Source: Bdellovibrionota bacterium
Lineage (GTDB): Bacteria; Bdellovibrionota_C; UBA2361; JBIKWN01
Assembly (NCBI GenBank): GCA_044356295.1
Contig: JBIKWN010000041.1
Coordinates: 1 to 21,153 of the forward strand
DNA: 21,153 bases
Direction of reading: 5' to 3'
Part shown: positions 12,001 through 15,000 of the stretch, in pieces
Layout: the number at the start of each line of letters is the position of its first letter
Numbering within the stretch: position 1 is the first letter of the stretch
Position numbers: made by a program

Positions 12001-15000
12001 AATTGGTGCAGTACTTATTCCTGGCGCAGCAGCTCCTAAACTTATCACTCGTGACATGATCAAATCCATGAAGAAAGGATCAGTTTTTGTTGATATCAGT
12101 ATTGATCAAGGTGGGTGCGGTGAAACGATTAAACCTACTAACCTTGATGCTCCAACGTTTATTGAAGAAGGTGTGATTCATTACGGTGTTTGTAATATGC
12201 CTGCTCAGACTCCTCGAACATCAACCCAAGCACTAACTGCTGCAACACTTCCTTACATAGTAAAAATAGCTAATAACGGTGGTATTGCTGCTTTAAATAA
12301 ATTCGCCGATCTTCGTGGGGCACTTAACACTCATCATGGGATGCTTACGAATCATGAAGTGAGTGAGGCAACTGGGTTTCGGTTTACTGCTATTGATGAG
12401 GCTTTGAAAGCTTAATGAGGATCTTTTTTGTAACGCGAAGGTCGCGAAGTACGCGAAGGGGATATTTTTGAAATTCGTGCTTTGACCCTGACGGTTTGAG
12501 TTTTTCTCGCAACTTTTTTTTGGAATTCATCGACCATTACTTATTAAAATGAGTAATTGGAATAAAATGAATTTTGAGCCTTTGAGTAATCAAGTAATTA
12601 GAGCAGCTATGAATGTTCATACTGCTTTAGGTCCAGGCTTATTCGAAGAAGTTTATAAGGCCTGCTTATTTTACGAATTATCGAAAATTGGTCTTAAAAC
12701 ATTTTCCGAAGTAAAGCTTCCAGTTCTATATGATGAAAAAAAGTTAGAAATTGGCTATAGAATTGACCTGCTGATTGAAGATAGCCTCATTGTAGAATTA
12801 AAATCTGTAGAGCAACTTCGTCCGATTCATAAAGCTCAACTTTTGACGTATTTAAAGCTTTCAAAGAAGCCGATTGGCTTACTAATAAACTTTAATACAC
12901 CACATCTAAAAAACGGGATAATCAGAGTAATAAATTCCCAACCCTAATACTCCCCCCTTCGCGTACTTCGCGACCTTCGCGTTACAAAATCCAAACAACA
13001 AAAACTGTCACTTTCCTCCACTATTCAGTAGAATCAATGACACCATGGCAACATTCGAATACGAAAAATCAATCCAATTATCAGAAGACAAAACAGTCTA
13101 CCGCAAACTTCCTGGCGATTTTGTCAAAGAAGTAAAACTAACAGACGGCAGAACATTTTTAGAAGTAGCCCCCGAAGGGCTAGCACTTTTAACCAAAACT
13201 GCATTCGCCGACCTTTCGTTTTTTCTAAGAAGTGAACACTTAGAATCACTTCAAAAAGAGTTAGATGATCCAGAAAGCTCAGATAACGATAAATTTGTCG
13301 TCTATACACATTTACAAAATGCAGTAATCGCTGCAAACGGAGTCCTTCCTATCTGCCAAGATACAGGTACTGCCCAAATAATTGGATGGAAAGGAAAAAA
13401 CATTCTTACTGATGGAAACGATGCAAAGTATATCTCGCAAGGAGTATTCGAAACCTATCAAGAAAAAAACCTACGGTACTCACAGATAGCACCAGTAGAA
13501 ATATTCAAAGAGAAAAACACAGGTAACAATCTTCCTGCACAAGTCGAAATATACAGTGATGCTTCCGAAGATTACCGCTTTCTTTGCATAGCTAAAGGCG
13601 GAGGCTCTGCAAGTAAAATGTTTCTGTATCAAGCATCACCTGCAGTGCTTAACGAAAAAAGCTTTGAAGATTTTATTACTAAAAAATTGGCAGATATTGG
13701 CACATCCGCTTGCCCACCCTATCACTTAGTTGTTGTCATTGGTGGAACAAGTGCAGATGACACAATGAAAGTGCTAAAACTTGCATCAGCTAAATATCTA
13801 GACTCGCTTCCACTAACCGGAAATGAAAAAGGAAGAACATTTAGAGACATCGAGTGGGAAGGAAAAATCCTAAAAATTGCTCAGAAACTTGGAATCGGCG
13901 CACAATTCGGAGGAAAACACTTTGCCCATGACGTTCGAGTCATTCGCCAAGCTCGCCATGCAGCAAATTGTCCGATTGGACTTGGTGTTAGTTGCTCAGC
14001 AGACAGAAACCTTAAAGCTAAAATTAATAAGGATGGAATCTTTATTGAACAGCTTGAATTTAATCCAGCAAAGTACCTTCCAAAAGTTGCCCCCGAGATG
14101 GCGCCTCCGGTTGTCGTTAATCTTAACGAAGGAATGGATAAAGTCCGAAAACTTCTTTCTCAATTCCCGGTAAAAACTAGGGTTAGCCTTAATGGTTCTG
14201 TCATTGTTGCAAGAGATCTTGCACATGCACGAATCAAATCAATGATTGAAGCAGGACAACCTATGCCTGAGTATTTCAAAAAATATCCTGTCTATTATGC
14301 AGGACCTGCGAAAACTCCTGCTGGTATGGCGACTGGAAGTTTTGGCCCAACAACTGCTGGACGGATGGATAGCTTTGTTGATCAATTCCAAAGTCTTGGC
14401 GGTTCAATGATCATGCTTGCCAAAGGAAATCGATCACAACAAGTTACTGATGCATGTAAAAAATGGGGCGGATTTTATCTTGGGTCTATTGGAGGCCCAG
14501 CAGCAAGTCTAGCGCTGAATAATATTACAAAAGTTGAAGTAATAGATTTTGAAGATTTAGGAATGGAAGCTATTCGTAAAATCGAAGTAGAAAACTTCCC
14601 AGCCTTTATCGTGATTGATGATAAAGGCAATGATTTTTTTCAGATGCTAAAGTAGATCGGAACAGTCATCAGCTAGCGAAGACTGACAATAACAATAAAA
14701 AATTACTAAGCAGCCCTAGCTGAACTTTTAGCTCGCTTAATCACAATCGGAGAATTGATAAGCAGCGTCGTCGTATCAGACTCACGCTTATAATTGATAT
14801 CGAAACCATTCTCATCAATCACAAAGAATTTCTCTATTACTGACACAAGCTCTTTTCGAAAAGCTGTAAGCTCTTCACTTGAAAGCCCTGCTCTATCCTG
14901 TACAAGACAGAAGTGGAGACGGCTTTTAGCCAAATTTTTACTTTCACGACCTGCGAAGAGTTTTTTGAATGAATTAAACACTTTTTTACCACCCCTATTT

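What a model noticed while it worked through the whole genome (the two positions that open the first line are those of the whole stretch)
12426..12989. GxxExxY nuclease gene sits between the two arms of an 80-bp palindromic repeat scattered ~78 times through the genome: a [...]
The genome carries a second dispersed repeat family (not the listed hexamer MITE): an ~80-bp near-perfect hairpin of three CGCGAAG-type 9-mers per arm, almost always intergenic. The single GxxExxY (PDDEXK_3) gene g00662 lies exactly in the loop between one left and one right arm. GxxExxY genes of many other phyla are likewise bracketed by inverted arms of 8-9-nt units, each with its own variant, so GxxExxY proteins are the candidate mobilisers of a REP/REPIN-like element class unrelated to the HUH RAYT enzymes.
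Evidence so far: 78 elements, 33 at contig ends, 22 closed hairpins, -69.9 kcal/mol example; 97 arm matches here vs 0 and 1 in the two sister species. Arms at C30:12426-12455(+) and 12960-12989(-) flank g00662, 36-nt inverted match; protein has GxxExxY and D-x-E-x-K motifs. Homologue loci: inverted arms (score>=14) in 57 of 80 genome loci from Acidobacteria, Planctomycetes, Bacteroidetes, Chloroflexi, Verrucomicrobia, Proteobacteria etc.; with a stricter window 52 of 78 inverted vs 10 direct and 0 reversed-only; independent metagenome set 52 of 75 inverted vs 15 direct; control 8 of 2083 genes of this genome. A Terriglobales genome has 9 gene-less closed palindromes of its own arm variant, another shows repe [...]
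(Added by a program. Inside this text positions count along the whole contig: contig position 1 is position 1 of the stretch shown here. "Call 12" and the like, gene names such as g00115 and contig names such as C1 are that model's own, and its searches are not shown. The text may have been shortened before it was handed on; [...] marks where a part breaks off. The agent that wrote the report below was given it as the finding of a first reader that could run no searches.)

Follow-up and report, generated by a model that had tools for sequence, protein, structure and literature searches.

The report
Small nuclease with its own repeats
A small DNA-cutting-type gene of unknown function sits between two mirror-image repeats that also occur without the gene about 80 times in this genome, and across many bacteria one amino acid of the protein changes together with one base of the repeat, which suggests the protein reads, and probably cuts and helps spread, its own repeat.

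Summary
Confirmed. A single GxxExxY gene (12549-12947) lies between perfect 36-nt inverted arms. The same arm occurs at 82 places in the genome, 26 as closed gene-less hairpins. Inverted arms flank 156 of 232 homologous loci (control 8 of 1200), and closed hairpins occur in 29 of 50 foreign genomes with the gene. New here: residue 13 in the N-terminal helix co-varies with base 5 of the repeat unit (Thr with G in 34 of 35, others 14 of 59; held in two held-out sets; tree-based test underpowered). The model is a minimal RecB/Cas4-type nuclease with intact catalytic motifs. Limits: no cleavage or movement is shown, and no target duplication or clean empty site was found. 36 of the 82 copies carry flanks of a separate MITE with 10-bp duplications. 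Some genomes hold many hairpins without a detected gene. Best reading: a site-specific nuclease plus its cognate repeat, working like Ssn-NTS or RAYT-REPIN but with another fold; that it mobilises the hairpins is about even odds. This scan noted the gene-plus-arms design before in at least ten other genomes; nine paper searches did not find it described.

The parts
12426..12461 (+). Left arm: T-tail, outer end, three 9-bp-spaced units (core CGCGAAG)
   Evidence: the 28-nt core is identical to 63 of 102 arm matches in the genome
12549..12947 (+). GxxExxY gene, 132 aa (a second ATG at 12567 fits the start of most homologues); intact E33, D73, E83-x-K85, H94, Q97-xxx-Y101
12585..12587 (+). Codon for Ser13 in helix 1, the position that co-varies with base 5 of the unit (here Ser13/Asn14 with A, as the rule predicts)
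12954..12989 (-). Right arm, exact inverted copy of the left arm, 6 nt after the stop codon
11282..12415 (+). Alanine dehydrogenase gene, left host flank
   Evidence: adjacent to fumarase without the cassette in congener G002
13045..14655 (+). Class I fumarate hydratase gene, right host flank
1..13 (-). Outer end of another arm, cut by the contig start
   Evidence: (pair I2)

Best explanation
The arm-gene-arm unit is a selfish or half-domesticated cassette. GxxExxY is a small RecB/Cas4-type PD-(D/E)XK nuclease that recognises the tandem units of its own arms at the DNA level, with helix 1 (residue 13, perhaps also 10, 14, 17, 21) reading base 5. It probably cuts at or just outside the sharp outer end of the arms, on single-stranded, hairpin or cruciform DNA. 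Having no strand-transfer chemistry, it leaves joining to host repair or recombination, which would give insertions without target duplication and with ragged flanks. Gene-less hairpins are non-autonomous derivatives that are copied as units and kept matched to the resident enzyme; some then spread further as passengers of DDE-type MITEs. Shown: anatomy, association, co-variation, intact motifs, gain or loss at orthologous sites, MITE carriage. Inferred: binding (about 0.8), cleavage near the arms (about 0.65), mobilisation of hairpins by this enzyme (about 0.45-0.5).
For: Inverted arms at 156 of 232 loci in three sets (55/78, 54/78, 47/76; reversed 0/1/0). Gene only inside arms in the arm-first search. 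Left and right units of one locus agree 0.87 against 0.59 between loci; protein identity tracks unit similarity, Spearman 0.44, 138 loci. Thr13 goes with G5 in 34 of 35 and other residues in 14 of 59 (94 proteins under 70% identity); it holds in both deep subfamilies (21/21, 13/14) and on the downstream arm alone (34/35 against 16/59); held-out 9/11 against 3/19 and 9/9 against 3/9. The dominant hairpin class matches a resident cassette in 18 of 24 genomes, p 0.03. Invariant E33, D73, E83, K85, Q97, Y101; best Foldseek matches are Cas4 4ic1 (E 2.7e-4) and 4r5q; QxxxY marks RecB-family nucleases (PMC2475608, passages). In this genome arms are 97% identical to the cassette arm and loops are 66% alike against 39% shuffled (17 hairpins), so gene-less units were copied. 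G-U-compatible mismatches are strand-symmetric, 95 against 95. Cassette, gene-less hairpin and no element all occur at one orthologous site in four Labilibaculum-genus genomes. Precedent: SsnA cuts a few bases outside its own repeat (PMC11893778, section 8).
Against: No cleavage, binding or movement is shown. The tree-based test of the residue-13 rule had only 4 independent pairs on well-supported branches and was not significant; Ser13 is mixed (11 of 32 with G). The base-7 link is one subfamily split (2-3 changes). 18 of 30 gene-bearing relatives have no closed hairpin under my pattern, and 9 of 66 gene-less ones do, two with large families. 6 of 24 genomes mismatch in class. 36 of 82 copies here carry MITE flanks. 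No clean empty site in G002, G159 or G170. The structure matches are middling and tied (Z 8.0 for 3ijm and 3s1s, 7.7 for 4ic1, 6.1 for Hjc) and do not fix the substrate. A four-helix-bundle gene, for which I recall no nuclease activity, has the same architecture with a hexamer family in this genome, so the architecture alone does not imply a cutting mobiliser.
Confidence: 0.5

Rival explanations
1. The protein binds and cuts its repeat, as SsnA does, but serves or affects the host (restricting incoming DNA, stimulating recombination); the hairpins spread by other routes such as DDE MITEs, recombination and duplication.
For: A 194-bp MITE with 10-bp target duplication carries the hairpin here (10/10, 8/10, 8/10 in three complete copies). 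In G080 a roughly 160-bp element with outer inverted ends carries about 75 near-identical hairpins with no gene detected. SsnA's shown role is modulation of transformation; mobility is only hypothesised (PMC11893778, section 12).
Against: 46 of 82 elements are bare, and their 58 scored flanks are unique except one pair. Cassettes come and go at gene junctions and many are broken, as for selfish units.
Confidence: 0.27
2. Only the full cassette moves; gene-less hairpins are scars left when the gene is deleted between the arms.
For: G161 has a gene-less hairpin at the site where G156 and G162 have the cassette, with the same left arm and flank. Loop lengths form a continuum of 4-149 nt in 82 closed elements.
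Against: Here the loops are nearly all 14 nt and related to each other, and no remains of the gene are found elsewhere in the genome.
Confidence: 0.1
3. An unknown shared factor or host process moves many kinds of arm-bounded small genes; GxxExxY is cargo or an autoregulator that only binds the arms.
For: The same layout holds for a four-helix-bundle gene with hexamer arms (117 arms, 42 pairs); other repeat types swap in at the same junctions.
Against: Catalytic residues are invariant in 49 of 49 aligned proteins; none of four Y1 transposase ORFs or the GIY-YIG gene here is flanked by these arms.
Confidence: 0.09
4. The arms act as an RNA stem, like an rRNA intervening sequence, that loops the gene out of the transcript; DNA recognition plays no part.
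For: The paired arms form a very stable stem; upstream arms often end within 5 nt of the coding match.
Against: No strand bias of G-U-compatible mismatches (95 against 95 in 156 cassettes); a base identity co-varies with a protein residue; no Rfam match.
Confidence: 0.04

Closest known systems
Ssn-NTS/SRM (GIY-YIG site-specific single-strand nucleases; PMC11893778: abstract, passages, sections 8 and 12 read)
   Same: Small single-domain nuclease gene flanked on both sides by a repeat that is also scattered through the genome; enzyme and repeat variants pair up across phyla; an IS-like origin is proposed.
   Different: PD-(D/E)XK fold, not GIY-YIG. The NTS is a 28-nt hairpin by itself, whereas these arms are tandem direct units that form a long hairpin only as an inverted pair. 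Activity is shown for Ssn, untested here.
REPIN-RAYT, REPtrons and TIRtrons (PMC3116915 and PMC3733652, passages read)
   Same: Inverted doublets forming hairpins, extragenic, conserved arms with a looser spacer, a cognate gene beside or between the repeats; one gene and many gene-less copies in this genome.
   Different: RAYTs are tyrosine transposases of the IS200/IS605 kind; GxxExxY is a hydrolytic-type nuclease fold. No GTAG/CGTC tag is shared by the arms. GxxExxY is often multi-copy and broken (up to 10 matches a genome).
RecB/Cas4-family nucleases (PDB 4ic1, 4r5q; PMC2475608 passages; PMC4176176 and PMC3466216 search listing only)
   Same: Motifs I-III plus QxxxY; best Foldseek matches.
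   Different: No Fe-S cysteine set among the invariant columns, 132 aa, no cas genes beside this copy, own repeat arms.
MITEs and DDE insertion sequences
   Same: Terminal inverted repeats around a single gene, gene-less derivatives.
   Different: No target duplication at arm ends and no DDE enzyme in the cassette. A MITE-type element does exist here as a separate 194-bp carrier of the hairpin.

Membership tests
REPIN-RAYT | Cognate gene is an HUH/Y1 tyrosine transposase | tested here: not met
   PF13366/TIGR04256 only; PD-(D/E)XK-type fold; four Y1 ORFs elsewhere lack these arms
REPIN-RAYT | Repeats arranged as inverted doublets forming hairpins, extragenic, many copies | tested here: met
   26 closed pairs, 32 arms cut by contig ends, 1 of 82 inside a long ORF
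REPIN-RAYT | Each arm is a REP palindrome with a GTAG or CGTC tag | tested here: not met
   End profile of 101 elements is TT(A/C)AC followed by tandem units; only this genome's variant happens to hold a short internal stem
REPIN-RAYT | Excision intermediates in population reads | not testable with these tools
   Only contigs were available
Ssn-NTS | GIY-YIG (cd10448) nuclease | tested here: not met
   a separate GIY-YIG gene lies on C51
Ssn-NTS | Small single-domain nuclease gene flanked on both sides by its dispersed repeat | tested here: met
   156 of 232 loci; 82 elements here
Ssn-NTS | Enzyme and repeat variants co-vary | tested here: met
   (tree-based test underpowered)
Ssn-NTS | Site-specific cleavage of single-stranded DNA only | not testable with these tools
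   needs purified protein
RecB/Cas4-type PD-(D/E)XK nucleases | [quoted passage not shown] | tested here: met
   E33, D73, E83, K85, Q97, Y101 invariant in 49 of 49
RecB/Cas4-type PD-(D/E)XK nucleases | Closest solved fold is Cas4 rather than another PD-(D/E)XK enzyme | tested here: inconclusive
   Foldseek ranks Cas4 first; VIA-align ties 3ijm (Z 8.0, rmsd 3.4, 100 aligned), 3s1s and 4ic1 (Z 7.7, rmsd 4.6, 103 aligned)
DDE IS / MITE (for the cassette and bare hairpins) | Target-site duplication at element ends | tested here: not met
   25 pairs here and 101 elements elsewhere do not exceed shuffled pairs; a palindromic TA duplication cannot be excluded in this genome but is not general
MITE (for the 194-bp carrier) | Outer inverted ends with target duplication | tested here: met
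   10/10, 8/10, 8/10 in three of five candidates; the other two (3/10, 2/10) had loose end calls
MITE (for the 194-bp carrier) | Cognate transposase with the same ends | tested here: inconclusive
   No PF01609 match in this genome; other transposase families were not searched
rRNA intervening sequence | Located in an rRNA gene and excised as an RNA stem | tested here: not met
   Between protein genes; no Rfam match; no wobble bias

The most novel reading that the evidence does not exclude
GxxExxY proteins (over 16,000 clusters at 50% identity) are the enzymes of a third class of nuclease-plus-repeat mobile element, beside RAYT-REPIN and Ssn-NTS, in which a purely hydrolytic RecB/Cas4-type nuclease reads tandem units through a simple residue-to-base code and spreads gene-less hairpins with the help of host repair.
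Probability: 0.4. Interest if true: 0.85.

Novelty: new variant of a known kind. Interest (0 to 1): 0.68.

Why it matters
PDDEXK_3/GxxExxY is listed as of unknown function (PMC3424549, passage) although it is a very large family (16,296 clusters at E <= 1e-10). The arms give it a defined substrate, and the residue-13/base-5 link gives a one-mutation test of recognition. If confirmed, it would explain a dispersed hairpin family seen in many phyla, show that a nuclease without transposase chemistry can drive repeat spread, and offer a set of 130-residue site-specific nucleases with natural specificity variants.

Tried and rejected
Paper searches that did not find the association: GxxExxY (3 papers, 2 listed; one passage read concerns reverse transcriptases), PF13366 (2 papers). 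12 of 14 supplementary files of PMC11893778 hold no GxxExxY, PDDEXK or four-helix term; 2 files were not searched, and bioRxiv supplements and most subscription papers are outside the library. No sequence match in the PDB. No Rfam match. Promoter and terminator scans did not exceed shuffles. Rare on mobile replicons: 8 plasmid records, 0 phage records, 1 viral contig. No remains of the gene at other arms here. No target duplication at arm ends, nor for composites that keep only one MITE end. The PF01609 transposase of G080 has other ends than its carrier element. The search for an empty site among G080's congeners matched only a short conserved stretch. No RNA holder was listed. In run X4 one low-depth contig of a roughly 95%-identical strain stops matching at the alaDH stop with no joint across the cassette; this is too weak to count. 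No residue predicted unit base 2 or 4 well (best phi 0.36 and 0.42). My hairpin pattern misses the unit variants ending in T (seen), so hairpin counts are lower bounds.

Full report
What is there. Between an alanine dehydrogenase gene (11282-12415) and a class I fumarase gene (13045-14655) lies a 564-bp unit: a 36-nt arm, a 132-aa GxxExxY gene and the exact inverted copy of the arm. Each arm is a T-tail, a sharp outer end and three units spaced 9 bp apart. A run from another study holds an identical contig over 12433-12982. In congener G002 the same two host genes are neighbours, with about 100 bp and a terminator-like hairpin between them, and no GxxExxY match. The unit was therefore gained or lost as a whole, though the junction is too diverged to give an exact empty site.

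The repeat family in this genome. I count 110 arms in 82 elements, with 0 matches for reversed or complemented patterns: 26 closed hairpins with 12-17-nt loops, one pair with an 85-nt loop, the cassette, 32 arms cut by contig ends and 22 lone internal arms. Of 44 with genes on both sides, 17 lie between convergent, 23 between tandem and 4 between divergent genes, whereas the genome's gaps are 120, 508 and 224 of 852. In 17 hairpins with 14-nt loops the arms are 97% identical to the cassette arm and the loops are 66% alike (39% when shuffled), so gene-less hairpins descend from one another.

36 of the 82 elements carry one or both flanks of a 194-bp element (reference C110:3876-4069) with its own outer inverted ends. 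Three complete copies have a 10-bp target duplication (10/10, 8/10, 8/10); two further candidates with loose end calls do not (3/10, 2/10). This is a MITE-type carrier, and the hairpin rode in it. No PF01609 transposase was found in the genome. Of 13 closed pairs with such flanks, 9 keep only the short flank, 1 only the long one and 3 both; the one-sided forms show no duplication. I cannot explain this bias; breaks beside the arm would fit, as would recombination between hairpins. The other 46 elements are bare, and their 58 scored flanks are unique but for one pair. At the arm ends themselves there is no target duplication, in 25 pairs here or 101 elements elsewhere. Inverted symmetry extends a few bases outside the arms (0.60 against 0.37 at the first base).

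The association across bacteria. Inverted matches scoring 14 or more flank 55 of 78, 54 of 78 and 47 of 76 loci in three sets (close homologues, a second subfamily, metagenomes; 9 short loci dropped), with reversed controls 0, 1, 0 and direct matches 14, 30, 21; ordinary ORFs give 8 of 1200. Starting from arms instead, 231 loci gave 82 closed hairpins, GxxExxY on the inner side in 9 rows (8 distinct places) and on the outer side in 0; 20 wider pairs without the gene showed no recurring protein on inspection of their longest frames, which I did not scan against families. Some single matches in GC-rich genomes are chance coding repeats. In 96 genomes of the phylum, closed hairpins occur in 12 of 30 with the gene and 9 of 66 without (Fisher p 0.007; kin are not independent). 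They occur in 29 of 50 foreign gene-bearing genomes, control 0 of 50 (50 of the 80 loci were given). Against a strict dependence, G080 (79 matches) and G010 (35) have no detectable gene even at E 1. In G080 the hairpins sit in a roughly 160-bp element with outer inverted ends, and I read 9-10-bp direct repeats beside 2 of 4 distinct copies; the G010 copies inspected look bare.

An allele series. In four Labilibaculum-genus genomes the rmlA-rmlC-rmlD operon (gene names from my reading of the translations) shows, at one junction, a cassette (G156, G162), a gene-less hairpin with the same left arm and flank but another right arm (G161), and no element with overlapping genes (G159). At the next junction three genomes have cassettes with different arms and proteins and the fourth a different repeat. 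Units are exchanged at gene junctions with replaced flanks, not by clean cut and paste.

Evidence that the protein reads the arm. In 138 of 232 loci with unit arrays on both sides, left and right units agree 0.87 within a locus and 0.59 between loci, and unit similarity rises with protein identity (Spearman 0.44). Among 94 proteins under 70% identity, base 7 follows the subfamily split (G with Leu31 in 62 of 63, T with Phe31 in 29 of 31), which is one event. Base 5 follows residue 13: Thr with G in 34 of 35, other residues with G in 14 of 59. It holds in both subfamilies (21/21, 13/14) and on the downstream arm alone (34/35 against 16/59), so codon overlap cannot cause it. Ser13 is mixed (11 of 32), with Gly14 accounting for 8 of those. 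Thr13 changes 17 times on the tree, but only 4 independent pairs lie on well-supported branches and that test is not significant. Held-out loci gave 9 of 11 against 3 of 19 (p 0.001; 2 loci without units dropped) and 9 of 9 against 3 of 9 (looser pattern, 2 dropped). The next-best columns, 10, 21, 109 and 17, include three on the same helix 1 (residues 10-27). The window's protein has Ser13/Asn14 and A5 units, as predicted. In trans, the dominant hairpin class of a genome matches one resident cassette in 18 of 24 genomes (p 0.03; 5 of 29 dropped for ties or no arm call), including all 8 scorable genomes with 13 or more matches; G017 and G145 are clear mismatches. Mismatches between paired arms show no strand bias for G-U pairs (95 against 95), which points to DNA and not to an RNA stem.

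The enzyme. The model is confident (pLDDT 92.8). [quoted passage not shown] Foldseek ranks Cas4 first (4ic1, E 2.7e-4); the wide search ties several PD-(D/E)XK folds at Z 7-8, so the substrate is not fixed by structure. Proteins with two tandem GxxExxY domains exist, which hints at action in pairs. The family has 16,296 clusters at E <= 1e-10 and is listed as of unknown function (PMC3424549, passage).

How it most likely works. Shown: a nuclease-fold gene tied to its own tandem-unit arms, with a residue-base link, and gene-less copies that match the resident enzyme. Inferred: the protein binds the units and cuts at or just outside the outer end; host repair joins the products, hence no duplication and ragged flanks. 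I put binding at 0.8, cutting at 0.65 and mobilisation of the hairpins by this enzyme at just under even odds. The main rival is an Ssn-like enzyme whose sites spread by other means.

Comparison with known systems. It works most like Ssn-NTS, where a 94-aa GIY-YIG nuclease is flanked by its dispersed repeat and cuts a few bases outside it on single-stranded DNA (PMC11893778; abstract, passages, sections 8 and 12), and like RAYT-REPIN in its doublet layout (PMC3116915 and PMC3733652, passages). It is a member of neither, since the fold and the arm design differ. Nine searches of the held library did not find the GxxExxY-arm link. Earlier AI notes of this scan report the same gene-plus-arms design in at least ten other genomes; they are not independent support, and one gave me the Ssn lead. 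A word search of those notes for a residue-base link returned nothing.

Verdict. Real, widespread and not found in the papers searched: a new variant of the nuclease-plus-cognate-repeat kind. Interest 0.68; 0.85 if the enzyme proves to be the mobiliser (probability 0.4).

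Noticed in passing
G000:C60:3753-4309: The hexamer repeat family (117 arms, 42 pairs) brackets a frameshifted four-helix-bundle gene (TIGR02436, E 7e-15) in the same arm-gene-arm layout.
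   Followed up: partly
G000:C110:3876-4069; C93:30005-30198; C104:29460-29609: A 194-bp MITE-type element with 10-bp target duplication carries the hairpin; in the C104 copy the hairpin has collapsed to a 19-bp palindrome. Its transposase was not found.
   Followed up: partly
G000:C51:40822-41250: A short stand-alone GIY-YIG gene followed by two short hairpin-like repeats, resembling an Ssn-SRM pair; membership not tested.
   Followed up: no
window 660-684, 5863-5880, 20184-20201: A third dispersed repeat family (38 arm matches, 10 pairs in the genome); no partner gene identified.
   Followed up: partly
G000:C8:4003-4221: A Y1-transposase-like ORF with tandem repeats upstream; three further Y1-like ORFs exist.
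   Followed up: no
window 72-1400: Two toxin-antitoxin-type gene pairs (HigB-HigA; Gp49-like plus HTH) lie directly beside the arm cut by the contig start.
   Followed up: no
L122-L126 (G080): About 75 near-identical hairpins nested in a roughly 160-bp element with outer inverted ends; a recent burst without a detected GxxExxY gene.
   Followed up: partly
P0001-P0015: Proteins of 240-295 aa with two tandem GxxExxY domains, the first with an altered GxxExxY motif in those inspected.
   Followed up: no
window 1641-5917: Three long ORFs (294, 812, 317 aa) after the glycine cleavage genes have no Pfam match.
   Followed up: no
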